From Chiloscyllium plagiosum (taxonomy: Eukaryota), in contig NC_057757.1 of the NCBI RefSeq assembly GCF_004010195.1, positions 4,778,823 to 4,842,822 of the forward strand: a stretch of DNA of 64,000 nt. The letters run 5' to 3'. A program made the translations under genes and the position numbers. Below, in pieces: positions 12,681 to 52,489 of this stretch. A model generated the notes under the pieces. That model was not told where the DNA came from. It did not search any database and saw nothing but the letters and a program-made list of their open reading frames with translations. The number at the start of each line of letters is the position of its first letter. Position 1 is the stretch's first letter.

Positions 12681-12701
12681 GAATTTAATTAATCAAGCCC
12701 G

Positions 12702-30547: not shown

Positions 30548-33500
30548 AACAGGTATACCATTTTGGATACGGCTTACTGGGGGAGGGCAGCAGTTGCCAA
30601 GATCATGGCACCATGGCGGTCACTGCTGTTCAGAAGGGCAGGAAAAAGACTCATAGGGCCATAGTCATAGAGATTCCACTGTAAGGGGAGTAGATAGGTG
30701 GTCCTGTGACCGAAAACAGGACTCTCGGATGGTATGTTATCTCCCAGGTGGTCAGGTCAGGGATGTCACCAATCAGCTGCAGAGCATTCTAAAAGGGGAG
30801 GGTGAACAGCTAGTTGTCTTGGTGCATATAGGCACCAACGATATAAGTAAAAAACGAAATGAGATGCTGAAACCAGAATTCAGGGAGCTAGGAGGGAAGT
30901 TAAAAAGAAGGACCTCAAAAGTAGTGATCTCCGGATCAGTGCCACATGCTAGCCAGCGTAGAAATGAAAGAATAGGCAGGATGAACACGTGGCTTGAGGG
31001 ATGGTGTAGAAGGAAGGGGGTTCAGAATTGTTGGACATTGGGACCGGCTCTGGGGAAGGTGGGACTATTACAAATTGGATGGTCGACACCTGAACCAGAC
31101 TGGAACTAATGTCCTTGGGGGAGTTTTTGCTACTGCTGTTGTGGAGGTTTTAAACTAATGTGGCAGGGGGCTGGGAACCAGAAGAGAAGACAAGTAGACA
31201 GCGAAGTGGAAACTGGAGAAAGTAAGAATCATGAAATTAGCGTTAATAATGGGAAGAATAGGCAGAGAGCAGATGAATGCAAAAGAACTGGCTGGCCTGA
31301 AGTGCATACTTTAATGCAAGGAATATAGTGGACAAGGCAGATGAACCCGGGGCTTGAATTGATGCCTGGGAGTATGACTTTATTGCAACCACAGAGACTT
31401 GGCTGAAGGAAGGGCATGATTGGCAACTAAATGTTCCAGACTATAGATGCTTCAGACAAGACAGGGAGGGAAGTAAAAGTGGGGGGGGGGAGGGGGGGGA
31501 GGTGTTGCATTGCTGATCAGGGATGATATCACTGCTGTGCTAAAGGAGGGCACTATGGAGGGCTTCAGTAGTGAGGCATTATGGGTAGAGCTGAGAACTA
31601 AGAAGGGTGCAGTTACATTGTTGGGGCTGTAACACAAGTCTCCCAACAGTGAGCATGAGCTGGAAGAACAAATAGGTAAACAGATTATGGGAAGATGTAG
31701 AGGCAACAGGGTGGTGGTGATGGGAGATTTTAATTTTCCCAACATTGACTGGGATACACAACCCTATGCCTCATTAGTTTAAAACCTCCCCAACAGCAGT
31801 AGCAAAAACTCCAGAGGTCTGGATGGGGAAGGATTTGTAAGAAGCATCCAGGAGAGTTTTCTAGAGCAGTGTGTCAATAGTCTGACGAGGGAAAGGGCGA
31901 TATTGGACCTGGTGTTGGGGAATGAGCCAGGCCAGGTGGTAGGAGCTGCAGCGGGGGATTTCTTTGGGAATACTGACCACAATTCTATAAGTTTTAGAAT
32001 ACTCTTAGTCAAAGATGAGAGTGGCCCTAAGGGAAAAGTACTAAATTGTGCCAGGGCAAATAATATCAAAATTAGACAGGAGCTGGGTAATGTGGATTGG
32101 GAGCAGCTATTTGAAGGGAAGTCCACATTTGATATGTGGGAGGCTTTCAAAGATAGGTTGAAGAAAGTGCAGGATAGGCATGTCCCGTTGAAAGCAAAGG
32201 ATAGGAAAGTCAAAATTCATGAACCGTGGATGACAGGAGAAATCATACGTCAAGCCAAGAGGAAAAGGGAAGCGTACATAAGGTCCAGGCAGCTAAGAAC
32301 AGAATGGACCCTGGAGGAATATCGGGAGAGTAGGACAAGTCTTAAACGTGGAATCAAGCAGGCTAAAAGGGGTCATGAAATAGCTTTAGTGAGCAGAATT
32401 AAGGAGTATTCCAAAGCCTTTTATTCTTATGTAAGAAGCAAGCTGGTAACTAGAGAAAGGATTGGTCCACTAAAGGATAAGGAAGGAAGGCTGTGTGTCG
32501 AACCTGAGAAAATGGGTGAGATTCTGAATGGTTACTTTGCATCAGTGTTCACTGAGGAAAGGGAAATGATGAATGCTGAGATTAGAGATCGAAGTTTGAT
32601 TACTCTGGATCACGTTGACATAAGTAGGGAAGATGTGTTGGGTAGGCTAAAGGTTATTAAAGGACAAATCCCCAGGACTGGATGCTAAGAGAGGCGAGAG
32701 AGGAAATAGCTGGGGCCCTGACAGGTATCTTTGTAGCATCCTTAAATACAGGTGAGGTGCGGGAGAGCTGGAGGGTTGCTCATGTTGACCCCCGTACAAG
32801 AAGGGTAGTAGGGATCTTCCAGGTAACTACAGACCCAGTGAGCCTGACGTCAGTGGTGGGAAAGTTGCTGGAGAAGGTACTGAGGGATAAAATCTATTTA
32901 TATTCGGAAAAGAATGGGCTTATCAGTGATAGGCAACATTGTTTTGTGCGGGGGAGATCGTGCCTTACCAAGTTAATGGAGTTCTTTGAGGAAGTGACCA
33001 AGTTGATAGATGAAGGAAGGGCAGTAGATGGCATATATATGGACTTTAGTAAGACGTTTGATAAGGTTTCCCATGGTAAACTAATGGAGAAAGTGAAGTC
33101 ATATGGTGTGCAGTGTGTTCTAGCTAGGTGGATAAAGACTGGTTGAGCAACAGGAGACAGAGAGTAGTAGTTGAAGGGAGTTTCTCGAAATGGAGAAAGG
33201 TGACTAGTGGTGTTCCACAGGGGTCAGTGCTGGGGCCACTGTTGTCTGTGATATACATAAATGATCTGGAAGAGGGCACTGTTGGTATAACCAGCAAGTT
33301 TGCAGATGACACGAAGGTTGGTGGCGTAGCAGAAAGGATAGGGGACTGTCAAAGAATACAGGAGAATGTAGATAGACTGGAGAGTTGGGCGGAGAAGTGA
33401 CAGATGGAGTTCAATCCAGGCAAATGTGAGGTAATGCATTTTGGGACGTGTAATTCTAGAGTGAATTATACAGTAAATGGAAGAGCATTGGGAAAAGCTG

Positions 33501-34210
33501 ATGGGCAGAGAGATCTGGGAGTTCAGGTCCATTGTACCCTAAAGGTCGCTGCACAGGTGGGTAGAGTGGTCAAGAAGGCATATGGTAAGCTTGCCTTCAT
33601 CGGACGGGGTATTGAGTATAAGAGCTGGCAGGTCATGTTAAAATTGTACAAGACATTGATTTGGCCGCATTTGGAATACTGTGTACAGTTCTGGTCGCCA
33701 TATTACCAAAAGGATGTGGACGCTTTGGAGAGGGTGCAGAGAAGGTTTACGAGGATGTTGCCTGGTGTGGAAGGTGCTAGCTATGAAGAGAGGTTGAGTA
33801 GGTTAGGATTGTTGTCATTAGAAAAAAGGAGATTGGGGGAAGCTGGCTGAGGACTACAAACTCTTGAAGGATATAGACAGGGTGAATAGAGATAAGCTTT
33901 TTCCCAGGGTGATGGATTCAATAACGAGAGGTCACTCTTTCAAGGTGAGAAGTGAAAAGTTTAAGGGGGATACACATAGCAAGTACTTTACACAGAGGGT
34001 GGTAGGTGCCTGGAATGCGTTGCCAGCAGAGGTAGTAGAGGCAGGTACAGTAGATTAATTTAAGATGCGTCTGGACAGATGCGTGAGTAGGTGAGGAGCA
34101 GAGAGATACAGATGCTTAGGAATTGGGCGACAGGTTTAGACGGTAGATTTGGATTGGCTCACGGCCAAAGGGTCTGTTCCTGGGCTGGAAATTTTCTTTG
34201 TTCTTTGTTC
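30548..34210 (+). mobile_element. Near-full-length degenerate CR1 LINE (ORF1 SGNH esterase, ORF2 endonuclease plus RT)
   Basis: VCYLPG..VRDV...VHIGTNDI (ORF1 esterase); MGDFNFPNIDW; DLVLGNEPGQV; YMDFSKTFDKV; GVPQGSVLGP; KFADDTK; HLEYCVQFWSP. Several frameshifts and stops. Confidence 0.93.
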
Positions 34211-35241
34211 TTTTTAACCAATTTCCTATCCACATCAGTAATTTACCCTAACTTCTGTGGGCTTCCACCTCGGCTAACTGTGTCTGTTAAGTGGCACTTT
34301 ATCAGAAGCCTTCTGGAAGTCCACATAACCAACATTCTTTGACTCACCTCTGTCCACCACTTTTGTCACCTCTTCAAAACATCTGTCAGGTTTGTCAGGC
34401 CTGACCTACCCTTCCTGAATCCATGCTGACTCTCCCTGACTAAATTGAACTTTTTTAAGATGATCAGGTACCCTATCCTTGATTACAGACTCCAACAATT
34501 TCCCCACCACAGATGTTAGGCTAACTGGTCTGTAACTCCTTGGTTTCTCTCTGTCACCTTTCTTAAAAAGTGCATGACATGTGCAATTTTCAAATCTGTG
34601 GTCAATGTATGAGTCATCAGAAGTAGCGTTAGAGAGTTAGAAGTATGTTCTACTTAAAAACAGACATCAGGATAAAGCATTGGTTCAATTCCTCAGAGAG
34701 CAAATGTACATTTGTTGCTGTACAAACTGAATAGAACAATCAAGTACAAGGACTGATACATTGTTGGTGCCCTGTGTGTGAAAAGTACCCTGACTTTTCA
34801 CAACTGTGATAATAACCAACTCCTTTTGGAAAAGCATCCTTCCAAAGTTGTTCTCAATCAACTTAATTTAGTTAACGTGTTTTGTCTGTTTAGTTACACA
34901 TCAATGTCCCAACTCACACCGAGTCCTGTTCACCCATTATAACACCATCATGGTCAATCTGATGAAACCTCAACGTTAAAGTTCTTATCCTTGTTTCCAA
35001 TAGCCTTGTGTCTCCCTATCATTGTAACCTCATCCAGCCTGAGAAGCATTCAAGATCTCCATTGTTCTCCAACTCTGGCCTCAGCTGCATCTCTGATTTA
35101 GCTTACCTACAGAAGGCCATTCTGTCTGGATCCCAAGCTCTGGAATTCCCATCTTAAAACCAACCAACATTCCCTTCTCTGCTAATGCATGTATACAGGA
35201 GCTTCCTGATGCTCCATATTAATCATTCTTGTTGCTTACAG

Positions 35242-35445
35242 CTGAAGCAGACCCCGGGAGAAGACAATCCCATTTTCCTTCCCTCGGACGCTGAGCTCGA
35301 CTGGATGCTGGCCAAGATGTGGGTGCGGAGCTGTGACTTTCAACACTTTAAGTTGGTCTCCCACCTTCTGAAGACTTACCTGATGGCTGAGACATTCAGC
35401 TTGGCCACTCTGAGGCAACTGCCGTCTTTGCACCCCATTTACAAG
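35242..35445 (+). pseudogene. Lipoxygenase exon 8, copy A (iron-binding helix), 204 nt
   Basis: ttacag/CTG; LKQTPGEDNPIFLPSDAELDWMLAKMWVRSCDFQHFKLVSHLLKTYLMAETFSLATLRQLPSLHPIYK; donor gtacga. The second iron His is replaced by Tyr. Confidence 0.95.
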
Positions 35446-36235
35446 GTACGAAGCGTGAGGAAAAATGTAGCTCCATTTTAATTCAGGGAAATTGCAGCTG
35501 GTGACAGTGGCTGAACTGATGGTGGGAATCTGTGCATCGTAGAATCAAAAGAATTTACAGTAAGGAAAGGAGCCATTCGGCCCATTGTGTCCTTTCTATC
35601 CGATAAGGAGCCATCCAGTCTAATCCCACCTTTCAGCTCGTGGTTTGTAATCATGTGGGTTAGGGCACTTCACTTGATTATCCTAATACTTGTTAAATGT
35701 TATGAACATTTCTGCCTCTACTATCCTTTTAAGCAGTAAATTCCAGACACCATAACGTGACGTTTCCCCTTGAAATCACTGTAACTCACTGACATCTCAC
35801 CTTAAAACCACGTCCCTTCCTTACTGCCCCTTCAGCCATGACGAACAAGCCTTTCCTATCCATTTTATCTAGGTTCCTCATCCTTTTTATACATCAAACT
35901 GGATTCCCCCCTCCTATCCTCCTCTGGTCCAAGGAAAACAACCCCTGCCCATCCAATTTTTCCCCAACATTAAAATTCTCCAGTCCAGGCAACATCGTGG
36001 TAAATTTCATCTGCACTACTTCAAGATTTTAAAATTCATTTATAGGAAATGAGCATATCTGGCTAAGCCAGCCTTTACTGTCCATCCCTATTTACCCTTA
36101 GTGATCTGCTTTCTTGAACTGATGCAGTCTTTGGGGTGAGTTCAGCGTCCGAGGGAAGGAAAATGGGTATTAGGATGGTCTTAGGATGGGAGTTCCAAGA
36201 TTTTGACCCAATGACAGTGAAGGAATGGCGATATA

Positions 36236-37050
36236 TTTGCAGAGTTAAAAATCACACAATGCCAGGTTATAGTCCAACAGGTTTATTTGGAAACACTAGC
36301 TTTTGGAGCGTAGCTCCTTCAATCAGGTAGCTAGTGGGGCAGGTTCATAAGAGACAAAATTTATGGCACAAAATCATAGTGTCACGCAACTGATACGATA
36401 TATTGAACAAACCTAGATTGTTGTTAAGTCTTTCATCTTTTAAAGTGGATTGCAGGTTTCGGTTCATTAATATGTAAATCCCAGAACTTCTGAACTTCTT
36501 TCAAGTTACATTCCTGAGATAACTTAAGGTTTTATAAAAAAAAGTGACATCTCTGCTCAGGCAATGCATTAAATGTGTGAGGTTAGAGTCTGTCTGTATT
36601 TCAATCTTGAGTCAGACTGGTTCTATTTTCAAAGCAGGAATTTATAAAATGTCACATAAAGTGACTGCCTGCAGATTGTGTGCTTTTTGAGCAAAATAGA
36701 ATGTATCTGTAAATACAATTCTGCAAATGCAAATTCACCCCATAGACTTATATGCGTGTAAGGGAGGGGAGATTGGGGGGGAAAGAGAGAGAGAGAGAGA
36801 GGGAATGTGTGTGGAGTGGGAGAGAGTGAGTGTGTGTGTGCATGTGTTTGGTAGAGTTTGTGTGTGTGTGAGACAGAGTATAAGCCTGCAAAAGGGTGTG
36901 CTCGTGGGTGTGAGTGTGTGTGTGTGTGTACCTCGCATGTGTGTGAATGAAAGAGAGAGTGTATAGGGTAGTGGGGCCACCTGTAGTGTGACATGAACCC
37001 CAGGTCTTGGTTGAGGCCATCCTTATGAGTACCGAACTTGGCTCTCAGCC
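36236..37050 (-). mobile_element. Penelope-like element 3' end with (TG)n/(GA)n low-complexity UTR
   Basis: Minus strand reads GLNQDLGFMSHY (GIY-YIG C-terminus); the terminal sequence is shared with the fold-back elements at ~28180 and 57082. Confidence 0.7.
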
Positions 37051-37364
37051 TCTCCGAGCAGAGTCAAATTTCTTGAGTTTTGTTAGAGCTGCACTCGTCC
37101 AGACAAGTCAGGTGCCTTGTATTTAGTGGTCAGGCTTTGGGAAGTGAGTTAGTTGCTGCTGAGTTCCCAGCCTTCTGACCTGTTCTTGTAGCTACGTTAT
37201 TTATATACCTCATCCGGTTCAGTTTCTGGTCAGAGCTAACTACTAACATGCTGATAATGGAGGGATTCATTCAAATATAATGCTATTGATTGTCAGGGGT
37301 GAGAGTGATTTGAAGGTGCTGGTTTTGGACTAGGTTGGACAAAGTCAAAAATCAGACAACACCA

Positions 37365-40215
37365 AAATAGTGCAGAGGAGAAGTGTTCACATTTCTGGAT
37401 CATTGGAATCTCTTCTGGGATCGAAGTGACCTGCACAAGCAGGACAGATTGCACCTGAATTGGAGGGGGACAGGTGTGCTGGCAGAGAGATTTGCTGGAG
37501 CTGCTTGGGAGGATTTGAACCAGTAAGGTGGGGGGTGGGCATGGGGCCCAAGGAGATAGTGGGGAGGGAGATGGTCTGAGGCTGGTGCAGTTGGGAAAGG
37601 AAACCCCAGTTGAATGTTGGCGTGGGCAAGAACATGGCAGAGAACAGGGTAGGACTGATGAATTGGACTGCATTGTTTCAATGCGACAAACCTGTCAGGG
37701 AGGGAAGATGAACTCAGGAAATGGTTGGGAGCACAGGACTGGGATATCATGGCAGTTGCAGAGATGTGGTTTAGGGATGGACAGGATTGGTGGCTTGGTG
37801 TTCCAGAATACGGATGCTTTGGGGTGATTGGGGAGGTGGTAGTGCAGGAGAGGAGGGGGAGTATCACTTTTGATGAGGTGCTGTGCTTGGGAGGATACTC
37901 CTGGGAAAACATCCAGGGAAGTTGTTTGGGTGGAGCTGAGAAATGGGAAGGGGAAGATCACCTTGTTGGGATTGTATTATGGACCCCCTAGTGATCAGTA
38001 GGAAGTTGAGAGATAAATCTGTGGGGAGATTTCAGGTGTCTGTTCCAGTGGTGGGGTGGTTGTGGTAGGGGAATTTTGCTTTCCAGATATGGACTGAGAC
38101 TGCCAAAGTTTTGGGAGTTTGGATGGAGAGGAATTTGTTGAATGTGTACAAGAAAAGTTTCTGATTCGGTATGTGGATGTATCTACTAGATAAGGTGCAA
38201 AACTTGACCTACTCTTGGGAAATGGGGCAGGGCAAGTGACTGGGATGTCGTGGGGGAGAACTTTAGGGTCAGCGACCATAATTCCATTAGTTCTGGAACA
38301 GTGATAGAGAAGGATGGACCAGATCTGAAGCTTGCATTTCTGAATTGGAGGAAGGCCAATTTTGACGGTATTGGGGAGGAACTTTCAGGAGCTGATTGGG
38401 GGCAGATGTTCGCAGGTAAGGGGATGGAGGATGTGAAGCCTTCAAAAGTGACATGGTAGAGACAGTATATTCCTGTTAGGGTGAAAGGAAAGGCTGATAG
38501 GTGTAGGGAATGCTGGATGACTAGAAAAATTGAGGTTTTCGTTAAGAAAAATAAATGTCAGGTATGGACAGTAGAGATCAAGTGAATCCTTAGAAGAGTA
38601 TAAAGGCAGTAGGAGTTTACATAAGTGTACCCTAAAATTCTGTGAGAAACTAGGGAAGTGATTGCTAGGCCTCTTGCTGAGATATTTGTATCATCGAATG
38701 GTCACAGGTGAGGTGCTGAAAGACTGGAGATTGGCTAACATGATACCACTATTTAAGAAAGGTGATAAGGAAAAGCCAGGGAACTATAGACCAGTAAGCC
38801 TGACCTCAGTGGTGGGCAAGTTGTTGGAGGGAATCCTGAGGGACAGGATTTACATGTATTTGGAAAGGTAAGGACTGATTAGGGATGACAACATGGCTTT
38901 GTGCATAGGAAATAATGTCTCATGAACTTGATTGAGTTTTTTGAAGAAGTACCAAAGAGGATTGATGAGGAAAGAGCAGTGGATGTGATCTACATGGATT
39001 TCAGTAAGGCATTCGACAAGGTTCCTTACAGTAGACTGGTTAGCAAGGTTAGATCTCATGGAACGCAGGGATAGCTAGCCATTTGGATACAGAACTGTCT
39101 CAAAGGTGGATGACACAGGGTGGTGGTGGTGGTGGGTTGCTTTTCAGGCCTGTGACACGTGGAGTGCCACAAGGATTGGTGATGGGTCCACTGCTTTATA
39201 TAAATGACTTGGATGTGAACATAGGAGGTATAGTTAGTAAGTTTGCAGATGACACCAAAATTGGAGGTGTAGTGGAACTCAAAGTACAACGGGATCTTGA
39301 TAAGATGGGCCAGTTGGCTGAGGAGTAGCAGGTGGAGTTTAATTTAGATAAATGCAAGGTGCTGCATTTTGGAAAAGCAAATCAGTGCAGGACTTGTATA
39401 CTTAATGGTAAGGTCCTATGGAGTGTTACTGAATAAAGAGACCTTGGAATGCAGGTTCATAGTTCCTTGAAAGTAGAGTTGCATCTTGATAGCACAGTGA
39501 AGAAGGTTTTGGTATGTTTTCCTTTATTGGTCAGAGTATTGAGTATAGGAGTTAGAAAGTCATGTTGTGGCTGTACAGGACATTGGTGAGGCCACTTTTG
39601 GAATATTGCATGCAATTCTGGTCTCCCTCCTGTCAGGAGGATGTTGTGAAACTTGAAAGGTTTCAGAAAAGATTTACAAGGATTTTGCCAGGGTTGGACG
39701 ATTTGAGTCAAGATTAGAGTGGTGCTGGAAAAGCACAGCAGGTCAGGCAGCATCCAAGGAGCAGGAAAAGCAGGAGAGGCTGAATAGGCTGGGGCTGTTT
39801 TCCCTGGAGCATTGGAGGCTGAGGGGTGACCTTACAGAGGTTTATAAAATCATGAGGGGCATGGATAGGATAAATAGACAGGGTCTTTTCCCTGGGGTGG
39901 GGGAGTCCAGAAGTAGGGGGCATAGGTTTAGCGTGAGAGGGGAAAATATAAAAAAGACCTAAGGAGCAACTTTTTCACGCAAAGGGTAGTGCGTGTATGG
40001 AATGAGCTGCCAGAGGAACTGGTGGAGGCTGGTACAATTACAGCATTTAAAAGGCATCTAGATGGGTATATGAATAGGAAGGGTTTAGAGGGATATGGGC
40101 CAAGTGCTGGCAAATGGGACAAGATTAGTTTAGGATATCAGGTCAGCATGGATGAGTTGGAGCAAAGGATCTGTTTCCGTACTGTACATCTCTATGACTG
40201 TATGACTCTACGACT
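37365..40215 (+). mobile_element. Second degenerate CR1 LINE, with a short PLE fragment inserted at ~39706-39770
   Basis: PGNYRPVSLTSVVGKLLE, GVPQG, KFADDTK; 3' tail ctctatgact repeats. Confidence 0.9.
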
Positions 40216-40984
40216 TTGAAGACTTTATTACATTTTTACATATTGTTCCTTTATTATTCCCAATTTCTTTTGAATTGGATCTATAAATATCACGTTTATT
40301 TCTAGGTGAATTGAAAATTTCATCAATCAACATCTTAATTGTTGCAGCCATCACTATAATTTAATTTAGGATTGATCCTTATCATAAAATATTATTAAGT
40401 GGTCATTGTAAGAGTTGTGGATTCACGCTTAATGCCTAAAAACGCACAAACAAAATATTCTCCAAAATTCTTTAATGAGAAATTGTCTGGAATGAGCTAC
40501 CAGAGGTAGTGGTGGAGGCTAGTACAATTGCAACACTTAAGAGGCATTGGGATGGGTATATGAATAGGAAGGGTTTGGAGGGATATGGGCCGGGTGCTGG
40601 CAGGTAGGACTAGATTGGGTTGGGATTTCTGATCGGCATGGACGGGTTGGACCGAAGGGTCTGTTTCCATGCTGTACATCTCTATGACTCTATGACTGTA
40701 TGTCCTGAGATTGTTTAACTCAAGGGAATCGTTTTTGCTATAGTCTACTGAGTAAGTACATTTTAATCTGAGATATTTCTGGTGGCCTGAAAACTTCCAG
40801 GAGTGAGGACCCTTTAATTTAGAACCAAGTCTATGAAGTTAAAGTAAAAGTCTCCAAAGTCCCACTTTTACATTAGAGAGAGACAACTGGTGGGGGTTTA
40901 ACCTGAGGGTCACCACACCTCAGGCAAGGGGCGAGGTTGAGAAGATGGGACCTTCGTGGTGACCTTAGCTGATACAGGACTTGA

Positions 40985-41805
40985 TATGATTTGATTTGAT
41001 TTATCATCACATGTACCTAGATAAAGTGAAAAGTTTCATTTTGCATGCAGTACAGGCAGATCGTACATATAAAGTCATTAGGGTAATAGAACAAAGAATA
41101 CAATGTTACAGCTGCAGAGAAGGTCCACAAAGAGTTGAGATCAATATTAAATTTAAAATTTGAGAGGTCCACTCATAAGTCTAATAACAGCGGGGAAGAA
41201 ACAGTTTTTGACTTTGTTGGTGTGTATTTTGTATCTTCCGCATGACGGAAGAGATTGGAAAAGATTGTAACTGGGGTGGGAGGGCTCTATGATTATGTTG
41301 GCTGCCTTCCTGAGTGTAGATGGAGTCAATGGAAGGGAGGTTGGAGATGGACTGGGCTATGTTCACAACTGTCTGTAGTTTCTTACAGACCTGGGCAGAG
41401 CTGTTGTCATGCTAAGTCGTGACACATCCAGATTGAATGCTTTCTATGGTGCATCTATGAAAATTGCTAAGGGTCTTTATGGACATGCCAGATTTCCTTA
41501 GTCTCCTGAGGAAGTAGAGGTTTTGTTGTGCTTTTGTGATAGCTGCATCAACATGGGTGGACCAGGGCAGATCATTGGTGAAGGTTATCCCTGGGAACTT
41601 GACACTCACGACCATCACCACCTCAGCATCATTGATGTTACAGGGATGTGCCCTCCACCTTGCTTCTTGAAGTCAATGACCAGATCTTTGGTTTTGCTGA
41701 CTTTGAAGAAGAGATTGTTATCTTTTCATCACACCACCAAGCATGCTATCATTTTTCTGTATTCTATCCTGTCACTGTTTGAGGTCTGACCTACAACGAT
41801 GGAGT
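40985..41805 (-). mobile_element. Rex1/Babar-clade LINE 3' fragment
   Basis: WSTHVDAAITKAQQNLYFLRRLRKSGMS..LSNFHRCTIESI.SGC, characteristic of the Rex1 RT C-terminus. Confidence 0.75.
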
Positions 41806-41809
41806 TAAA

Positions 41810-43551
41810 ACCCACACTGTTGCCATCACAAACCAATAGCTCAGTCGACTGGACCAAGTCTGTGTGCACTAAGGATATATACGATTTCAAATCACTCTGA
41901 GCTGAGGGCTCGAGTGAACGATAAGTTCAACTGGTTAAATTAACCTGGTCAGGTAACACACAATTGATGGTCTGCTATTTGGGAAGTACGTGTGACATCA
42001 AATTCACACCCTTTGGAAAACATTAGGTTGACAAACTTCTCAACAATATTTCACATGTTATTATTCAGTGATGTGGCACGGTGACTCAGTGGTTTGCACT
42101 GCTGCCTCACAGTGCCAAGGACTCAGGTTCAATTCCTACCTTAGGGGACTGCCTGTGTGGAGTTTGCACATTCACCAAGTGTCTGCGTGGGATTGCTCTG
42201 GTTTCCATCTGCAATCCACAATGTGCAGGGCAGGTGAATTGGCCATGCTAAATTGCCCCATGGTGTTAGGTACATTGGTCAGAGGTAAATGTAGAGAAAT
42301 AGTTCTGGATGGGTTACTCTTTGGAGGGTTATGTGGACTTGTTGGGCCAAATGGTCTGTTTCCACGCTGTAGGGAATCTAATCTGATTTGTAGAGAATCT
42401 AATCCGTTTATTTACAGATCGCAGATTACCTCTAACCTAACTCGCAGAGTTCTATTCACCCATCACCCTTCATGGTCACTGTTTTCACATTTGCAATTTT
42501 AAAATTTGCATCCTGTTTTCCAGCCCTGCATGATCTGATACCTCCATCTCCCTGTAACCTCCTCCAGTGCGGAAAACATTAAAAATTTCTGAGCTCCTGC
42601 AACTCCCGTCTCAGGTAGATCCCAATTTCAAATATTTATTCATTGGAGGCAGTACCTCCGTCTGCTTAGACTCAAAACTTGGCAATTCTCTTACTAACAC
42701 CCTTTCCATTCCTCTCCTCTGTTAAAATGCTTCCTAAAATCTATTTCTTTGACCACGCTTCAGGACCTGCCCTAACATCTCCATATGTGAATCATGCTCA
42801 AATGTTTGATTGGTAAGCAGTCCAGTGAGGGTAGCTGGGGACATTTTACCTCATTTGCCGGTGTTACATAAATGCAGTTTGTTTTTTGCATGACACCGAG
42901 TGTCTTTTATTCTCCATATTAATCTTTCTTGTTGCTTACAGCTGAAGCAGACCCCGGGAGAAGAAAATCCCATTTTCCTTCCCTTGGACGCTGAGCTCGA
43001 CTGAGACCATTTGGCCCAACAAGTCCACATAACCCTCCAAAGAGTAACCCATCCAGACCTATTTCTCTACATTTACCTCTGACCAATGTACCTAACACCA
43101 TGGGGCAATTTAGCATGGCCAATTCACCTGCCCTGCACATTGTGGATTGCAGATGGAAACCAGAGCAATCCCACGCAGACACTTGGTGAATGTGCAAACT
43201 CCACACAGGCAGTCCCCTAAGGTAGGAATTGAACCTGAGTCCTTGGCACTGTGAGGCAGCAGTGCAAACCACTGAGTCACCGTGCCACATCACTGAATAA
43301 TAACATGTGAAATATTGTTGAGAAGTTTGTCAACCTAATGTTTTCCAAAGGGTGTGAATTTGATGTCACACGTACTTCCCAAATAGCAGACCATCAATTG
43401 TGTGTTACCTGACCAGGTTAATTTAACCAGTTGAACTTATCGTTCACTCGAGCCCTCAGCTCAGAGTGATTTGAAATCGTATATATCCTTAGTGCACACA
43501 GACTTGGTCCAGTCGACTGAGCTATTGGTTTGTGATGGCAACAGTGTGGGT
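41810..43551. repeat. 548-bp near-perfect inverted repeat (41810-42357 vs 43004-43551), 646-bp spacer
   Basis: Direct reverse-complement comparison. The mirrored ORFs 42068+ and 43293- differ at one residue (REIVLDG vs REIGLDG) over their shared part. Confidence 0.95.
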
Positions 43552-43672
43552 GCGGAGCTGTGATTTTCAACATTTTGAGCTGGTCTCCCACCTTCTGAAA
43601 ACTCAGCTGATCGCTGAGACATTCAGCTTGGCCACTCTGAGGCAACTGCCGTCCTTGCACCCCATTTCCAAG
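42942..43672 (+). pseudogene. Lipoxygenase exon 8, copy B, interrupted by an inverted templated insertion (43004-43544)
   Basis: 42942-43003 encodes LKQTPGEENPIFLPLDAELD; 43545-43672 encodes WVRSCDFQHFELVSHLLKTQLIAETFSLATLRQLPSLHPISK; donor gtatgc. 12 mismatches to copy A over 190 aligned nt (manual count). Confidence 0.93.
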
Positions 43673-45169
43673 GTATGCAGCATGAGGAAGAATGTAGCTT
43701 CATTTTAATTCAGGGAAATTGCAGCTGGTGATAGCGGCTGAACTGATGGTGGGAATGTCATCGAATCCTGATCTGTGCATCATAGAATCAAAAGAATTTA
43801 CAGTAGGGAAAGGGGCCATTCAGCCCATTGTGTCCTTTCCATCAGATAAGGAGCCATCCAGTCTAATCCCACTTTTCAGCTCTTGGTTTGCAATCATGTG
43901 GGTTAGGGCAGTTCACTTGGTTATCCCATTACTTGTTAAATGTTAGGAACATTTCTGCTCCCACCAGCCTTTAAGCAGTGAATTCCAGAACGTGCAACAA
44001 AATGTTTCCCCTTGAATCCCCCCAAAGCCAGCAAGCTCTTGCTCTAAATTAATGCTCTCTCTTTATTGACCCTTCAGCCATGGGGGAATAGGTCATGTGA
44101 ACATCACATTGAGATGGGAATAGGCCATTCAGCCCCTTGAACCCACTTGGCCATTCACTAAGATTGTGGCCTTAACCCCATGTTCCCACCTACCCTTTCC
44201 TAGCCAAGTAATAGCAAAATGCTATGACTACTGGTATCTGAGACAAACACAGGGAATGCTGTGGAAACTCAGCAGGTCTGGCAGCAGCTTTGGAGAGAGA
44301 AAACAGTTAACGGCTATCCATTCTCTCTCGATCCCTCAATTTTTCGCACTTCCATTTGTTCTGCTCTTTGTCACCTCTATTCCAAGGATAACGCAAATCC
44401 ATCAAACTTTTCCTCATTACTAAAATTCCCCAGTCCAGACAACATCTTGGTAAATCTCCTCTTCAACCATATCAAGTGCGCTCCACATGTTTCCTATAGT
44501 GCAGCAGTCCAGATGTGGCTTGACCATGTTTTATAAATTTCCCATACAACGTCCCAGCTCTTATACTCTCGGACATGGCTAATTAAGGAAAATATTCTGC
44601 ACATCTTGTTGACCACCTTATCCAGCTACCAGGCTACTTTGAGTAATCTGAGGACATTCTCTCCTATGTTTTTCTGTTGCTGTATACTTCCCAGTCTCTC
44701 ACTATTTGTCATGTATTTCCTGCCTATTCAGCATTCTCCAAACAATTTAACTCACACATCTGTGGACTGAACACTGCTTGTACTGTTTAGCTGACTTATC
44801 TCTTTCAGTCTACATCTTAGAAACGTAGAAAATAGGAACAGGATTAAATCTTTTGGCCCTTCAAGTCTGCACTGCTATTCGTTATGATCAGGGCTGGTTA
44901 TCCAATTCAGTACCCAGTTCCGCTATCTCCCAGTACCCTTTGACCCCCTTTAGCCCTAAGGATTGTATCTAATTTTTTTCTTGAAAACATTCAATGTTTT
45001 GGCCTCAACTATTTTCTATGGCAGAGAATTCCACAGGCTCCCTACTCTCTGGGTGAAGACATTTCTCTTCATCTCACTCCCTGAATCTTTAGATGTAACC
45101 ACATTTCTGGACTCCCTGGTCATTGAGAACGTCTTTCCTGTTTATATCCTGTTTAGTCCGGTTAGAATT

Positions 45170-45985
45170 TTACACTCCGCAGGGACTGTTCCTTCCAGGA
45201 CACCCTGGTCAGCTCTTCCTTCACTCCCAACAGCCCCCCACAGCCGCAAGGTATCTCCCCCTGTAACCACCAAAGAATAGCACCTGCCCAATTACCTTCT
45301 CCCAAACACACCTTTCAGGTGAAGCAGCACTTTACCTACATTTCAGACAATCTAGTCTCCTGTATTCACTGCTCATAATGTGGTCTCCTGTACACTGAAA
45401 TGAATCAGAGGCTGGGTGACCACTTTGCAGAACACCCACTTTTTGCCCGCAAAAAAGACCCTGAACTTCCAGTTACCTGCCACTTTAAGACAACACCCTG
45501 TTCCCTGGTCAACATCTCTATCTCAGGCTTGCTGCAGTGCTCCAGCAAAGCTCAGCGCAAGTTGCAAGAACAACACCTTATTTTCCACATGGGAACACTG
45601 CAGCCCTCTGGACTCAATGTTGAGTTCAATAATTTTAGGGCCTGAAATGTCCTAGCCTCCAACCTCACACACCAGACCTTGTTATCGTGTAGTCTGCCAT
45701 TACACACTATCTATTGGTAACCACAAACGGTCTCCATTAACAGCTTTTCACCTTTCCAGCCAGATCATTATCAACCCCTTTGTGTGTCCAACTGTTCTCT
45801 CTCTTTGGGCTCTATCTCCACTTATCGTTTACTTATTACCCCTACCTCCACCCCATCTTCTGCATATAAACTGACATTTTCCATCAGTTCTAAGGAAGAG
45901 TCAACAGACCTGAAATGTTAACTCTAACTTTTTTTCACAGATGCTGCCAGACCTGCTGAGCTTTTCCAGCAACTTCTGTTTTTAT
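45170..45985 (+). mobile_element. Penelope-like element 3' end (GIY-YIG remnant plus pLTR)
   Basis: QHFTYISDNLVSCIHCS*CGLLY...RLGDHFAEH...PVTCHF. A related copy lies on the minus strand at ~10850-11240. Confidence 0.75.
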
Positions 45986-47573
45986 TTAGAATTTTATAGG
46001 CTTCTATGAGATCCCTCCCCACATTCTTCTAAACTCCAGTAAACCTAATCCTAACCGATCCAATCCCTTTTCATACATCAGTTGGCCTAGTGGTATTATT
46101 GATAGACCATTAATCCAGAAATCCAGGTAATGTTCTGAGACCCTGGCTTGGAATCCCACCATGGTAGATAGTCAAGTTTAAATTCAACCACTGCTGAAAA
46201 TGTGTTGCTGGAAAAGCGCAGCAGGTCAGGCAGCATCCAAGCAGCCCGAAACGTCGATTTTCCTGCTCCTTGGATGCTGCCTGACCTGCTGCGCTTTTCC
46301 AGCAAAACATTTTCAGCTTTGATCTCCAGCATCTGCAGTCCTCACTTTCTCCTCTTTTGAATTCAACCAAACAAGTATATGGAATTAAAAGTCTAATCAT
46401 GACCAAGAAACCATTGTTAATTGTCAAGAAAAAACCCATCTGGTTCATTAATGTCCTTTCATTCCTTTCCAAAGGAAACTACCATCTTCACCCAATCTGG
46501 CCTACATGGACTCCAGACCCACAGCAATGTGGTTGATTCTAACTGTCCCCTAGGCAATTAGGGATGGGCAATAAAAGCTGGCCTCGCCAATGGCACCCAC
46601 ATCCCATGAATGAATAAAATTAATAGCCCTGCATTTGAAGAATGAAGAAACTGACCAACAATTTTTGTTTGATCAGCAAATACATGAAAAAGATCAGCTG
46701 TTTCAAGTATTTTTTTTAGTCTCAAAATTATACATAGAGATTTTTTTTTCTTAGATTCCCTACAGTGTGTAAACAGGCCCTTCAGCCCAACAAGTCCACA
46801 CCGGCCATCTGAAGAGCAACCCACCCAGACCCCTTCCCTTACATTTACATTTACCTCTGCACCTGACACTATGGGCAATTTAGCATGGTTAATTCACCTA
46901 ACCTGCACATCTTTGGATCGTGGGAGGAAACCCACACAGACACGGGGAGAATGTGCAAACTCCACACAGAGGTGGGAATTGAACCCGGGTCCCTGGTGCT
47001 GTGAGGCAGCAGTGCTAAACACTGAGCCGCCGTGCGGCCCCTATATACACACAGTCACTGAAGCAGATTAGTTCTGTACAATAGCATCTGGGGAAACAAA
47101 CAGACCTTGGAGTTTGACTCTATCCAGCAAACAAACCCAAGATATTTCTTTGCAAGATTACATTTACACATGCTGGAGGCACTGGGAGGATCCAACTACT
47201 GAATGGACCCCCATTTAATTTCGATAGAAAGACCTTCGATGACAGACTTTCCCCACTACGTCTTGGCAGCAGCTGCCCCAAAGTTTAGTTACAACAGCAG
47301 ATTTGCTGTTTCTGGGAAGAGTGTGGGATGTTAGCAATTTTAACTGCCCATCTGATTTCCAATGCCTGGTGTGGTTACAACTGCAATGTGTTTCTCTGGC
47401 AGTCAGTTAGTCCAGTTGATTGGTTGGGCTTCTGCTTGTTTCTTTCGCTAAGGTGATAAATGGTTTCAGCTTTGAGCCCCCAGCTCTATCCTACCAGGGA
47501 TCATTTGCAATCTGGCTGCAGAGCATATTTTTATTCACTTACGGGATTTGGGTGACTCAAACTAGGCCCCAGC

Positions 47574-47607
47574 ATCCTGATGAAGGGCTTTTGCCCGAAA
47601 CGTCGAT
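47574..47607 (+). ncRNA. Minimal hammerhead ribozyme motif
   Basis: ATC-CTGATGA-A-GGGC-TTTT-GCCC-GAAA-CGTC-GAT. Confidence 0.72.
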
Positions 47608-47869
47608 TTTGCTGAAGCTCCTCGGATGCTGCCTGAACTGCTGTGCTCTTCCAGCACCATTGATCCAGCATTTATTGCCCATCCCTAATTGCCCAGAGGG
47701 CAGTTACGAATCAACCACGTTGCTGTGGGCCTGGAGTCATATGTAGGTCAGATCGGGTCAGGGCAGCAGAGTTCCTTCCCTAAAGGACATTAATGAACCA
47801 GATTGGTTTTTCAGACAATCAGTAGTGGCTCTGTGGTCACCATTAGACCCTTAATTCAGATTATTTTTA

Positions 47870-48183
47870 TTAGATTAGATTACTTACAGTGTGGAAACAG
47901 CCCTTCGGCCCAACAAGTCCACACCAACCTGCCGAAGCGCAACCCGCCCAGACCCATTCCCCCACATTTACCCCTTCACCTAACATTACGGGCAATTTAG
48001 CATGGCCAATTCACCTAATCTGCACGTTTTTGGACTGTGGGAGGAAACCGGAGCACCCGGAGGAAACCCACGCAGACACGGGGGGGATGTGCAAACTCCA
48101 CACAGTCAGTTGCCTGAGGCGGGAATTGAACCCGGGTCTCTGGCGCTGTGAGGCAGCAGTGCTAACCACTGTGCCACCATGCC
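47870..48183 (-). mobile_element. HE1-like V-SINE (other copies at ~12300-12490 -, 12885-13170 +, 13298-13585 -, 42073-42385 +, 46750-47035 -, 51666-51960 -, 54550-54890 -, 59231-59428 +, 62780-63018 +)
   Basis: Same head, V-domain and (taatc)n tail as 976-1290. Confidence 0.88.
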
Positions 48184-48344
48184 TGCCCCTTATTGAATTC
48201 ACTTTCTGCCATGGCAGGCTTGAATCCCAGGTCTCCAGAACATTAGCCGAGTTTCTGAATTAATAGTCCAGAGATAATGCCACTAGACTATTGCCTCCTA
48301 AAGTAAGATTCTATGTTGGCTTGAAAAGACAATTCAATAATCAC

Positions 48345-48910
48345 CAGCAGCTGTATAGGACATTGGTTAGGCCATTTTTGGAATACTGTGTGCAATTCTG
48401 GCCTCCTGCTGATAGAAAGGATGTTGTGAAACTTGAAAGAGATTTACAAGGATGTAGCCAAGGTTGGAGGATTTGAACTACAGCGAGAAGCTGAACAGGC
48501 TGGGATTGTTTTCTCTGCAGTCTCAGAAGCTGAGGGGTGATCTTATTGAGGTTTATAAAATCATGAGGGGTATGGATAGGATAAATAGACAGGGTCTTTT
48601 CTCTGGGGTGGGGGAGTCCAAAACTAGAGGGCATAGGTTTAAGGGGAGAGTGGAAATATTTTAAAGGGACCTAAGGGGCAACTTTTTCGCACAGTGGGTG
48701 ATGCGTGTATGAATTGAGCTGCCAGAGGAAGTGGTGGAGGCTAGTACCAGTAAAATATTTAAAAGGCATCTGTATATGAATAGGAAGAGTTTAGAGGGAT
48801 ATGGGCCAAGTGCTGGGAAATGGGACTAGATTTATCCAGGATATCTGGTCGGCATGGACGAGTTGAACTGAAAAGTTTGTTTCTGTGCTGTGCTGTGCTG
48901 TGTCTCTATG
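48345..48910 (+). mobile_element. CR1 LINE 3' fragment (representative; similar fragments at ~2116-2685, 5425-5925, 7090-7660, 15485-16000, 22800-23270, 26520-27260, 40480-40700, 59770-60510, 61370-61795, and 62600-63275 on minus)
   Basis: LYRTLVRPFLEYCVQFW, RLGLFSL, LRGDLIEVYKIMRG, TRGHRFK motifs. Confidence 0.85.
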
Positions 48911-50565
48911 ACTCACTATGTAATTCTTGTGACACAGTGCTGACATCCCTACCTCTGAGCCAGAACATGCAGGTTTCTGTCCCAGCTGTCTGAATAGATT
49001 GATTCAAAATAATTATAATGAAATTACCCTGAACACAGCAGTCTTGATTGGAGAACATCAGGATCCAAACCCAATCCAAGCACAGTGACTCTAAATCTAA
49101 ACTGAACACAGCAGTCCCACTGAACTCACACAACGCCCCGCTATAACTCCAGCTGCTGGTTATTGAATTCTGATATATTCCTCCTGTCCTGGGCCGTGGC
49201 AGTGGGAACAGGAGTGAATGTTGAGGGTTGGTGGATGTACAGCCAATCAAGCGGGCTGCTTCATCCTAGACAGTGTTGAGTTTCTTGTGTGTTGTTGGGG
49301 TTGCAATCATCCAGGCACACTCCTGACTTGTGTCTTGTAGATGATAGACAGTCTTTAGGGAGTCAGGAGGTAAGTTACTCTGTGCAACACTCATATTCTC
49401 TGACCTGCTTTCGAAGCCAGTGTTTATGTGGGGGGTCCAGTTGAGTTTCTGGTCAATGGTGATGTCCCAGGATGTTGACAGTGGGAGATTCAGTGACAGC
49501 AATGCCACTGAATGGCAAGGGGTCATATTCTGCCATTTGGAGACTTTCTTTGCCTGACACTTGGGCGGCGGTAATAATACTCGCCACTTATCAACTCAAG
49601 ATGTTTCATCGTTCATTCATAGAATTTGGGTGTTTCTGGCTAGTTCAGCATTTCTTGCCCATCCCAAAGACCAGTTCAGTGTCAACCACATTGCTGTAGA
49701 TCTGGAGTCAGATTAGACCAGACTGTGCAGATCTCCTTCCCTAAATGAGTATGCTGAACCAGATGGTTTTATCCAACAATAGACTGTGGTTATGTGGTCA
49801 CCATTAGGCTAATTTAAAATAAAAAATTGATATCATGATGGAATCCGAACCCATATCCCAGACTGTTAGCCTGTTGTTCAGGATTAATACTCCAGTGAGA
49901 TTAATACTGTGCCACCATCTCTCCCTCTTTCTCTAAAACTGCAGAGGGGCAGAGCCAAGTATGCACAAGGGTGTGCTGTACAATGCAGTCCAGAGGGCTC
50001 GTAAACAAAGAAAAGTCAGAGGGGATGGTGCCTCTGACTACAGCCAAGACCGCATTTGCATTTTGACCATAGAATCATGACACACTTCCAGTTAATGGAG
50101 ATACATGGAATGTAGTAGTTCCACAAGGCATCTCACAACATTTTAGAGGGGCAATTAGGGATGGCCAGTACATGGTTTCTAGTTGGTGATGTCCATCTCC
50201 TGTAAATGAATAAAAAAATTAGTTGTCAGCTGATCCATGCCTTCAATCAGCTGAATGCACCAAATACAATTATGAATTGCCATCATCCCAGTAAACCAAT
50301 TTTACGAGGTAATGTGTATGTAAGTTCATAAGAAACATGAGTAGGAGTAGTCCATTCAGCCCCTTTAGCCTCCCCTGCCATTCAGTAAGATCATGGTCGA
50401 TCTTCTATTCCACCTTCCCACTCTATCACCATATCCCTTGATTGTCCTAGAGCCCAAAGGTCTATGGATCTCAGCCTTGGGTTTACTCAGTGACCAAACA
50501 CCTGGCAGATTGGGAATTCCAAAGATTAATCACAATATTTCAATATTATAAATATTATGTTTCAG

Positions 50566-50653
50566 CTTCTGGCTCCTCATGTGAAGTACATGATGCACAT
50601 CAACAACCCATGTGAGATTGAAACTGAAAGGCGATGGTGGATTTATCTGCCAA
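50566..50653 (+). pseudogene. Lipoxygenase exon 9, 88 nt (87 expected), +1 frameshift
   Basis: tttcag/CTT; LLAPHVKYMMHIN /fs/ THVRLKLKGDGGFICQ; donor gtaagt. Confidence 0.87.
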
Positions 50654-52112
50654 GTAAGTTCTGCTTTACATAATCTCCCTTATGACTCCTTAATTGTATT
50701 TCAAATGTATTCAAATTCATTTAGTGCTCACTAAGATGATTTTCTAATCAATGATGTTTGACTTTAAGTGTAACCTGTGGTATAATAAGATTTATGTAAA
50801 TCGTGATGATATAACTGATGATATCACTCTGATATCAGTAAGTGAGAGACTCAAGTCTAGAATGAACTTGTGAGGGGGGAAGTCTTAGACACTAGACAGC
50901 TGTATTTGAGAAACCCACTAAATGCAGATGTAAATAAAGGAGTGTTACATCAAGTGATAAAGTGCTTCATTGACGAAAAAAGAGAAAGCAGACTCAGGGA
51001 TGATGAATGTACAGACACATCCCATCACACTGGGATCTCAAAATGGAGGTAGCAGTATTGGCCTAAAGCACAAGCTAAATGATTAACTCAACGTAAAAGT
51101 GCTGTGCAGAATCGTCATATAATTCTGGCTTTGTCCAGAGTTTTAATAGGACTTAGAATAGCCCTAGGAATTCAGGCCTGTTTGAGCATGGGTGCATGTC
51201 AATGACTGAGTTATTAGCATTATCCCGAACACCAAGGTTAAATCACCTGCTCTTCTCAAAAATCATGGTCATGGGATCTTCAACAGCCCCTGACAGGGCA
51301 GGTGCAACCTGAGTTTAATATTTCATCTAAAAGATTGTACTGGTATGTCGGACATTCCAGCACTCCCTCAGTTCTGGGAACTGGGAGAGTCTGCCTAGAA
51401 TTTTATATCCAAACCTCTGGAGTGAGATTTAACCCATCACTGTCTGATTCAGGTGCTCGTGCTACCCACTGAGCCATGGCTGACTCACCATCACAGGTTT
51501 CTGCCCCTTTATTTCTCAGCTTTGTAATCAGGTTAAGTTACCCTGTGACGAAGCAGATGATAAGCGATTGGGTTACGCGTGAGTGCCTTGTACCATTTCT
51601 GTTTGCCTTCGTGGCTACAGTGTGTGATATAGGTACAAGGTTGTTTCATGCTAAATCGTTTTTTTTAGATTACTTACAGTGTGGAAACAGGCCCTTCGGC
51701 CCACAAGTCCACACCGACGCGCAACCCACCCAGACCCATTCCCCCACACCTAACGCTATGGGCAATTTAGCATGGCCAATTCACCTAACCTGCACATTTT
51801 TGGATTGTGAGAGGAAACCGGAGCACCCACAGGAAACCCACACAGACACTGGGAGAATGTGCAAACTCTACACAGAGAGTCGCCTGAGGTGGGAATTGAA
51901 CCCAGGTCTCTGGCGCTGTGAAGCAGCAATGCTAACCACTGTGCCACTGTGCCACCGTGCCTGCCCCATCTCTTTCACTATATCTTCTGCATTTATCTTC
52001 TCATGCTATTGTCTTCATTCTTGCAATTTCCCAGGAAAATGATCCAAACAATCCTTCATCACTCCTGGTGCTGCCAATAAATGGGATTTAATCTGTCTCT
52101 TGTTTTCTAAAG

Positions 52113-52282: not shown

Positions 52283-52489
52283 GTAAGTAATAACTTAGGT
52301 TCTTCCAGTGTGGGAAATACTCTCGTCAATACTCTGGCACACTCAAATCCCCTCAATGATCACTAATTCTGCTGAACGCAACAAAGTCAGTTCTCTTATG
52401 CTCAACTCCCATGTGGAATGTCAGGCGACCTGACCGTGTGGTACATTTTCTTTTCAATTCTAACTCCTGACCTGAAGCTATTGCAGCCA

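What the first reader, a model, noticed from the sequence alone, without database searches (positions are those of the whole stretch)
41810..43672. Catalytic exon split by a 548-bp inverted, locally templated insertion with a 7-bp microhomology
Seen: in exon 8 copy B, 14 nt (gatgctggccaaga, present in copy A) are replaced by the reverse complement of 41810-42357, which lies 646 bp upstream. The right junction uses TGTGGGT, shared by the template and the exon, while the left junction is blunt. The insert is unique intron sequence plus a truncated HE1 SINE, with no TSD or tail, so it is not a SINE retrotransposition. I found only one mismatch between the arms. Inference: a recent replication template switch or polymerase-theta-type templated insertion. 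It leaves a long inverted repeat that could form dsRNA in pre-mRNA or a cruciform in DNA.
Basis: partly seen in the sequence, partly recalled or inferred. Interest (0 to 1): 0.72.

Follow-up and report, generated by a model that had tools for sequence, protein, structure and literature searches.

The report
Backwards copy breaks dead shark exon
A 548-base piece of nearby intron was copied backwards into a spare exon of an already dead shark lipoxygenase gene; it is a real but ordinary DNA-repair scar that some individuals seem to carry and others to lack, with no sign that it does anything.

Summary
Real, but ordinary. Arms 41810-42357 and 43004-43551 match at 547 of 548 bases; 14 exon bases are lost; 7-nt microhomology on the right. 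A short-read contig from a public run bridges the left junction; the right is inferred from contig ends. A second run under the same species label and one from a relative look empty, so it probably segregates. The 'catalytic exon' is a spare duplicate in a decayed 5-lipoxygenase-like pseudogene; its second iron-ligand His was already Gln in the uninterrupted sister-species copy (P0001). It fits the human 'inverted dup' class (<1 kb, within 5 kb; PMC4617611), made by template switching or repair synthesis. Added here: the left break end also has a 7-nt match in the donor, 25 nt from the right-hand one (84 of 18,778 random junctions; post hoc), so the 'blunt' join may be primed; two smaller inverted copies lie within 12 kb. 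Cruciform unlikely (646-nt spacer); dsRNA untested in effect. The scan noted similar scars in other shark windows (unchecked).

The parts
41810..42357 (+). Donor arm: 265 nt low-copy intron sequence plus most of a SINE
   Evidence: single contig per run over the non-SINE part
42075..42387 (+).
   Evidence: aligns to other window copies at 70-80%
41840..41848 (-). Donor match to the junction-spanning word TCGACTG|AG, inside a 10-nt palindrome (41842-41851), 25 nt from the TGTGGGT match
41810..41816 (-). Donor copy of the 7-nt microhomology
42358..43003 (.). 646-nt spacer (SINE tail, intron, left part of exon B)
42942..43003 (+). Left part of exon-8 copy B (AG acceptor intact)
43002..43004 (+). 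TGA stop made by the left junction (Trp codon in copy A)
43004..43551 (-). Inserted inverted copy of the donor (last 7 nt are the microhomology 43545-43551)
   Evidence: left junction bridged in run X3
43552..43672 (+). Right part of exon-8 copy B (GT donor intact); codon 43604-43606 is Gln where 117 of 120 homologues have the second iron-ligand His
35242..35445 (+). Exon-8 copy A, open frame, holds the 14 nt lost from B; Tyr (35377-35379) at the same His position
5230..56018 (+). Decayed 5-lipoxygenase-like gene hosting the event (frame change near 15297, residues 276-321 not found, frame lost after 50622)
   Evidence: tblastn of P0002, P0003 and 5 other homologues

Best explanation
A single germline repair or replication accident. 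A break (or stalled fork) inside exon copy B was mended by copying 548 nt from a donor 646 nt upstream on the opposite strand and then rejoining the exon 14 nt further on at a 7-nt microhomology (order 3-2-1-4 of the four-point model; 'inverted dup' with insertion-site deletion). SHOWN: geometry, direction of copying, deletion, right-hand microhomology, presence of the left junction in independent short-read data, uninterrupted state in the sister species. INFERRED: the steps. Most likely the resected left end folded back on its own upstream strand (or both ends engaged one donor site): its last 7 nt TCGACTG pair at 41842-41848 and gain AG, those 2 nt re-prime at 42357-42356, synthesis runs 548 nt to 41810, and the new end TGTGGGT anneals to the right end. 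The enzyme (Pol theta end joining versus MMBIR/FoSTeS-type switching) is not determinable. The event is neutral: it hit a spare, already His-less exon in a pseudogene, and appears to segregate in the species.
For: 547 of 548 identity, SINE cut in the copy but whole in the donor. Microhomology of 7+ in only 7 of 18,778 simulated junctions. Run X3: one 188-nt contig, 42935-43122, 1 other letter, 69 and 119 letters on the two sides of the left junction; the arm contig ends, wholly aligned, exactly at 43551 and a B-type contig with 0 differences starts exactly at 43545, the two places where an assembly graph must branch if both arms exist. Run X10 (a relative, 49 differences in 1,467 letters on four listed pieces): the arm contig runs 111 letters past 43551 with no branch and the exon contigs come from an uninterrupted junction. 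Run X7 (same species label; 7 differences in 1,039 against 13 in 1,786 for X3): an uninterrupted contig with the 14 nt runs 35 letters past 43545 and feeds the Gln-type exon piece; none of its 8 listed pieces crosses the left junction. P0001 from C. punctatum has an A-type exon followed by a B-type exon (TQLIAETF, read-through KVRSMRKNVASF) with DWVLAKMW intact. The 7-mer TCGACTG occurs in the 64-kb window only in the two exon copies and in the donor palindrome and its copy; a left-end match of 7+ in the last 60 nt of the donor arose in 84 of 18,778 simulations, a 9-nt junction-spanning word there in 35 of 18,778. Class described in humans: duplicated stretches <1 kb inserted within 5 kb, 54% of sequenced 'inversions' (PMC4617611, passages).
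Against: The right junction was not seen bridged by a listed contig; it is inferred (68,359 pieces not shown). Depth is weak: arm/flank is 5.43 against 2.7-3.98 in X3, but also 5.9 against 4.6-4.7 in X10, which lacks the insertion, and 4.64 against 12-18 in X7; X10 also shows surplus depth in the bin where I first read X3's surplus as junction contigs, so I dropped that argument. Absence in X7 and X10 rests on contigs, which drop rare variants, and on one run each; paralogues share the uninterrupted junction (a third, His-type copy is visible in X7 and X10). Whether X3 is heterozygous cannot be told. The two-step priming reading is post hoc: anywhere in the donor the 9-nt word arises in 428 of 18,778 simulations (2.3%), and gapped similarity upstream of the microhomology is reached by 2.3% of 5,000 random 34-mers. 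SD-MMEJ motifs were defined within 20 bp of the junction (PMC2943611, passages), not 1.15 kb. One base (41990/43371) is the same in both arms of the window yet differs in all 3 DNA runs, so conversion or polishing may have homogenised the arms and the one-mismatch clock is soft.
Confidence: 0.82

Rival explanations
1. RNA-templated patch (class 2 TSIP-like): the left break end primed on the gene's own nascent sense pre-mRNA, which gives the same inverted copy of upstream intron, then joined at the 7-nt microhomology.
For: Orientation fits: the left end must copy the + (sense) strand. Class 2 TSIPs have no TSD or poly(A), with microdeletion and microhomology, 73-414 bp in the experimental set (PMC5110952, passages).
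Against: TSIP donors are described as distant (same passages); here the donor is 646 nt away, which a DNA fold-back explains without an RT. No transcription of the locus was seen (uninformative). Sequence alone cannot separate an RNA from a DNA template.
Confidence: 0.07
2. Assembly artefact (fold-back or chimeric long read, or mis-scaffolding) in the window's assembly.
For: Near-perfect arms; both arms share one base that differs from all 3 DNA runs (41990/43371), as polishing of a collapsed repeat could cause; right junction not directly bridged.
Against: A short-read contig of run X3 crosses the left junction with 69/119 letters and the graph breaks fall exactly at 43551 and 43545; X3 differs from the window at 13 of 1,786 letters on six listed pieces, so it is not a re-read of the same haplotype; fold-back reads do not return to the exon 14 nt on at a microhomology.
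Confidence: 0.03
3. The inverted pair is functional: it folds the pre-mRNA so that exon B (its acceptor lies in the loop) is skipped, or yields dsRNA for editing or small RNAs.
For: 547 of 548 arm positions pair in the MFE fold, -1257 kcal/mol against -330 for donor plus spacer. The annotated model P0002 skips exon B.
Against: The gene cannot make an active enzyme with or without B; the sister species keeps B without the insert; the element looks absent from a second individual; no Rfam match at E 0.1 in 41500-44000.
Confidence: 0.03
4. Plain one-switch event: the left junction is a true blunt join (NHEJ-like) and the TCGACTG-AG match in the donor is coincidence. Same class, simpler path.
For: Post hoc chance 0.2-2.3% depending on the window allowed; blunt junctions occur in 17 of 155 and 13 of 148 germline MMB-TI junctions (PMC8421209, section 10 part 1).
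Against: The 7-mer occurs nowhere else in the window on either strand except exons and donor, and it lies in the right order and orientation 25 nt from the other microhomology.
Confidence: 0.35

Closest known systems
Germline 'Inverted Dup' class, 1000 Genomes phase 3 (PMC4617611; passages)
   Same: Duplicated stretch under 1 kb, inserted inverted within 5 kb of its source, not tied to retrotransposition, polymorphic; replication-error origin proposed.
   Different: Found in a shark, and inside a (dead) exon whose duplicate preserves the pre-insertion sequence.
Four-point template switch, type 3-2-1-4 (PMC5453318; passages and section 6)
   Same: Same order of switch points; makes a new inverted repeat; 31% of high-confidence human-chimp events with its mirror case.
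   Different: That study treats short-range mutation clusters of tens of bases; here the copied piece is 548 nt and the first jump 646 nt.
MMB-TI / MMBIR-type templated insertions (PMC8421209; passages and section 10 part 1)
   Same: Inverted insertion near its template, replacing sequence, microhomology or microhomeology at junctions, occurs as germline variants.
   Different: Their search was limited to templates within 100 bp and inserts up to read length; the canonical signature has microhomology at both junctions, here 7 nt and 0 (or 2 by the primed reading).
Snap-back SD-MMEJ / Pol theta end joining (PMC2943611; passages)
   Same: Primer repeat on one side of the break, microhomology repeat across it, inverted repeat spanning the junction, apparent blunt joins.
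   Different: Defined within 20 bp of the junction with short synthesis by a non-processive polymerase; here 1.15 kb away and 548 nt long.
Class 2 TSIP (PMC5110952; passages) and PCAWG local 2-jumps (PMC7025897; passages)
   Same: Copy-and-paste patch at a break, no TSD, small deletion; local n-jumps with inverted junctions.
   Different: TSIP donors are distant and RNA-derived; PCAWG events are somatic and mostly far larger.

Membership tests
Inverted duplication (<1 kb, within 5 kb) | Second copy in inverted orientation, source retained | tested here: met
Inverted duplication (<1 kb, within 5 kb) | Length under 1 kb and distance under 5 kb | tested here: met
   548 nt, 646 nt apart
Inverted duplication (<1 kb, within 5 kb) | An allele without the second copy exists | tested here: met
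   P0001; runs X7 and X10 look empty
Inverted duplication (<1 kb, within 5 kb) | Both junctions confirmed by long reads | tested here: inconclusive
   left bridged by a short-read contig, right inferred from contig ends; no long reads available
MMB-TI / MMBIR | Microhomology at the junctions | tested here: inconclusive
   7 nt right; 0 left, or 2 under the post hoc primed reading
MMB-TI / MMBIR | Template within 100 bp (operational definition of MMBSearch) | tested here: not met
   646 nt; definition
Pol theta / SD-MMEJ product | Junction-spanning repeat of 4+ bp within 20 bp of the junction | tested here: not met
   best spanning word is 9 nt but lies about 1.15 kb away in the pre-insertion layout; criterion
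Pol theta / SD-MMEJ product | Dependence on POLQ | not testable with these tools
   needs genetics
SINE retrotransposition | TSD, intact 3' tail, insert begins within the element | tested here: not met
   14-nt deletion instead of a TSD; SINE 3' end cut by 30 nt; 265 nt of non-SINE flank included
Class 2 TSIP | No TSD or poly(A); microdeletion and microhomology | tested here: met
Class 2 TSIP | Distant donor, RNA intermediate | tested here: not met
   donor is local; RNA intermediate not testable
Active animal lipoxygenase gene | Both exon-8 iron-ligand His residues and a complete open frame | tested here: not met
   first His kept in 120 of 120 homologues and both copies; second is His in 117 of 120 but Tyr in A and Gln in B; frame changes and missing residues 276-321. 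That these His bind iron (H367/H372 of human ALOX5) is recalled; the alignment to ALOX5 chains is.

The most novel reading that the evidence does not exclude
Cartilaginous fishes carry a frequent, characteristic repair scar: inverted copies whose donor lies 0.6-1.2 kb from the break, made by long-range fold-back of a resected end in which both break ends first pair with one donor site through short matches. Three such copies sit within 12.5 kb here (46, 30 and 548 nt; spacers 602, about 840 and 646 nt; no low-copy direct counterpart within 1.5 kb), and the slow shark clock would preserve them as a readable archive of resection length and primer choice in a vertebrate germline.
Probability: 0.15. 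Interest if true: 0.5.

Novelty: new member of a known kind. Interest (0 to 1): 0.17.

Why it matters
As it stands it matters little: a neutral structural variant of a class common in humans, in a dead exon. Its uses are modest: a homoplasy-free presence/absence marker for bamboo-shark populations, and a clean natural example where a paralogous exon preserves the pre-break sequence so that both junctions can be read to the base. It would matter more if the 0.6-1.2 kb inverted geometry and the second-end match prove enriched genome-wide, since that would give a measurable signature of germline resection length and primer search in a slowly mutating vertebrate.

Tried and rejected
No whole genome is held for this window, so no genome-wide census was possible. 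No RNA holder listed in the run search. RNA run X21 (about 2 in 100 read): 612 reads laid, 4 at 99%+, depth 0 over 42427-42978 and 43324-43806; the A>G/T>C letters in the SINE bins are also in the DNA runs, so they are cross-mapped SINE copies, not editing; not even His-type paralogue reads fell on the exon, so this is no evidence on expression. Depth as a copy-number test: rejected (X10 control also raised). Rfam over 41500-44000: 0 matches at E 0.1. The inverted pair 20098-20293 / 20859-21161 was first counted as a fourth local copy and then dropped: the translation looks like a Penelope-type GIY-YIG element (recognition recalled, not scanned), whose inverted ends are element-made. A LINE fragment ends about 3 nt from the donor end (Pfam PF09004 on 41415-41672; the frame running into the arm had no hit): treated as coincidence, since the LINE is far older. 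Cluster look-up for P0001-P0003 could not be made, so their record details are unseen. Literature searches: shark + lipoxygenase pseudogene gave 4 unrelated papers; bamboo shark + structural variants + inverted duplication listed 10 of 456, none mentioning bamboo shark; one five-term search gave 0; PMC4617611 was opened from a recalled id. No supplements were read; length distributions in them may bear on how unusual 548 nt is. Earlier-finding look-ups near this place and by exon sequence were empty.

Full report
Observation. The window holds an inverted repeat with arms at 41810-42357 and 43004-43551, 548 nt long, 646 nt apart, with one mismatch. It is the longest and most identical pair in the 64 kb. 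The right arm interrupts a copy of a lipoxygenase exon. A second copy of that exon at 35242-35445 (A) is whole; aligned to it, copy B lacks 14 nt at the insertion site and resumes at TGTGGGT, which is also the end of the arm. So 541 new bases replace 14. The left junction turns a Trp codon into TGA and the frame shifts by 2. The arm is 265 nt of low-copy intron plus a SINE that spans 42075-42387 in the donor and is cut 30 nt short in the copy, which shows that the upstream arm is the source.

Host gene. Exon A is 100% identical to part of P0002, annotated as a 5-lipoxygenase-like protein of Chiloscyllium plagiosum, 336 aa, so the window is very probably that bamboo shark. By ALOX5 numbering (recalled) this is exon 8; it aligns to human ALOX5 chains at E 4e-24. 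tblastn of 7 of the 120 listed homologues shows a decayed gene on the + strand from 5230 to about 56018: a frame change near 15297, no hit for residues 276-321 of the full-length relative P0003, loss of frame after 50622, and a late exon lying inverted at about 3950-4113 with a stop. Of the two His residues of exon 8 that bind iron (recalled), the first is kept in 120 of 120 homologues and in both copies; the second is His in 117 of 120 but Tyr in A and Gln in B. P0001, a 126-aa model from C. punctatum, consists of an A-type exon (TYL) followed by a B-type exon (TQL, with the same intron read-through) that is uninterrupted. Hence the exon duplication and the loss of the His both came before the insertion, and the insertion arose after the two species split. 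The title's 'catalytic exon' was already a dead spare.

Is it real, and in whom? One search listed 24 runs, 20 holding part of 42400-44200, 4 with half its words or more. I laid 4 of the 24 on 42358-44400 at 90% likeness. In X3 (organism A) a 188-nt contig covers 42935-43122 with one other letter, 69 letters on the exon side and 119 in the arm: the left junction exists outside the assembly. The arm contig ends wholly aligned at 43551 and a B-type contig with no differences starts at 43545, the exact nodes at which a graph must branch if the right junction exists; the short bridging piece itself is not among the 8 pieces shown for that run. In X10 (organism B, 3.3% distant on four listed pieces) the arm contig runs 111 letters past 43551 and both exon contigs come from an uninterrupted junction, while B's own upstream intron is present: empty. 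In X7 (organism A label, another study, 0.67% distant against 0.73% for X3) an uninterrupted contig carrying the 14 nt runs 35 letters past 43545 and feeds the Gln-type piece, and none of 8 listed pieces crosses the left junction: it looks empty. So 1 of 2 same-label runs carries it. Against this: contigs drop rare variants; a third, His-type paralogue shares the uninterrupted junction; depth is not informative (the empty control X10 also has a raised arm depth; X7's depth is uneven); and zygosity of X3 cannot be read. One base (41990/43371) is the same in both arms of the window but differs in all 3 DNA runs, which points to conversion, polishing or a heterozygous X3, and is unexplained.

Age. 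One mismatch in 548 at 7e-10 per site per generation (epaulette shark, PMC10587355, passages) gives about 1.3 million generations, Poisson range 33,000 to 7.3 million, before the uncertainty of the rate and of arm homogenisation. That is compatible with a variant still segregating in a species of large effective size; 'recent' is relative.

Mechanism. The layout is order 3-2-1-4 of the four-point template-switch model (PMC5453318, passages and section 6). A junction microhomology of 7 or more arose in 7 of 18,778 simulated events of the same geometry, so the right junction was homology-guided. The left junction is blunt against the donor start, but the last 7 nt of the left end, TCGACTG, plus the first two inserted bases AG, also occur on the copied strand of the donor at 41848-41840, 25 nt from TGTGGGT; the exon had the same two 7-mers 14 nt apart. 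The 7-mer occurs nowhere else in the window but in the exon copies and this donor palindrome and its copy. In simulation a left-end match of 7+ in the last 60 nt of the donor arose in 84 of 18,778, a 9-nt spanning word there in 35, and anywhere in the donor in 428. The test is post hoc. The reading I favour, as inference: the resected left end folded back, primed at the 7-mer, gained AG, re-primed with those two bases at 42357-42356, copied 548 nt and annealed to the right end at TGTGGGT; equally, both ends engaged the donor, the right end copied 541 nt, and the two met at AG. The enzyme cannot be named from sequence. An RNA template is not excluded by orientation but is not needed.

Consequences. 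The pair would fold if transcribed (547 of 548 positions paired), but the one RNA run laid showed nothing on the unique arm or exon and is uninformative. Cruciform extrusion is unlikely: going from a 12-bp to a 100-bp spacer lowers Alu inverted-repeat recombination 300-fold in duplex DNA, though wide spacers still interact in long single-stranded DNA (PMC10164571, passages). Nothing suggests function.

What is known. Humans carry this class commonly: 54% of sequenced 'inversions' in 1000 Genomes were inverted duplications, nearly all under 1 kb and within 5 kb of the source, not tied to retrotransposition (PMC4617611, passages). This event meets those features (long-read confirmation apart). 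It fails the tests for SINE retrotransposition and, by distance, the operational definitions of MMB-TI and SD-MMEJ, though it works like them. My searches found no report of this locus; they cover only the open library.

Neighbours. Two smaller inverted local copies lie nearby: 36138-36167 is the reverse complement of exon A 35269-35298 (29 of 30) inside another repeat, and 31767-31812 copies 31120-31165 (44 of 46) inside a LINE whose second copy in the window lacks it. Of 124 pairs of 25+ nt at 90%+, 11 were low-copy; 3 of these lie within 1.5 kb, all inverted, one of them an element-made Penelope-like pair that I set aside; none is direct (the main pair fell outside this filter because of its SINE). 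Numbers are too small for a claim. Earlier unchecked notes of this scan describe similar backwards copies in other shark windows; I did not test them. Together they motivate the novel case, at low probability.

Verdict. Observation confirmed; interpretation right on the kind of event, overstated on the exon's importance and on cruciform or dsRNA effects. New member of a known kind; interest 0.17.

Noticed in passing
window 36138-36167: 30-nt inverted copy (29 of 30) of exon A 35269-35298, inserted about 840 nt downstream inside another repeat; carries the A-specific base; its donor ends 5 nt before the position where copy B broke.
   Followed up: partly
window 31767-31812 and 31120-31165: 46-nt inverted copy (44 of 46), 602 nt from its source, inside a CR1-like LINE (family recalled); the second LINE copy at 37367-38300 lacks it.
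   Followed up: partly
window 3950-4113 (-): A late lipoxygenase exon (QYDWGA...) lies inverted upstream of exon 1, with a stop; no other minus-strand exon was found, so the locus has been rearranged.
   Followed up: no
window 41990 and 43371: Both arms of the window share a base that differs in all 3 DNA runs laid, including the carrier X3; conversion, polishing or heterozygosity.
   Followed up: partly
window 41150-41807 (-): Decayed LINE fragment (Pfam PF09004 hit at 41415-41672) whose truncated end lies about 3 nt from the donor end at 41810.
   Followed up: partly
window 20098-21161: Penelope-like element with inverted ends at 87-97% identity; a related copy at 9771-10315.
   Followed up: partly
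window 43550-43875 in runs X7 and X10: A third paralogue with His at the second iron-ligand codon shares exon 8 and downstream intron at about 91%, probably the working gene.
   Followed up: no
P0021 (Pristiophorus japonicus, 669 aa): A full-length sawshark 5-lipoxygenase-like model also has Gln at the second His position and Tyr at a later HxxxNN His, apparently an independent loss.
   Followed up: no
window 42965 and 42985: Two substitutions in B within 40 nt left of the junction that both copy A and P0001 lack; too few to call repair-associated.
   Followed up: no
window 28168-28423, 57076-57199, 46193-46317, 22188-22305: Several palindromic repeat elements (75-92% self-complementary), probably MITE- or Penelope-derived.
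   Followed up: no
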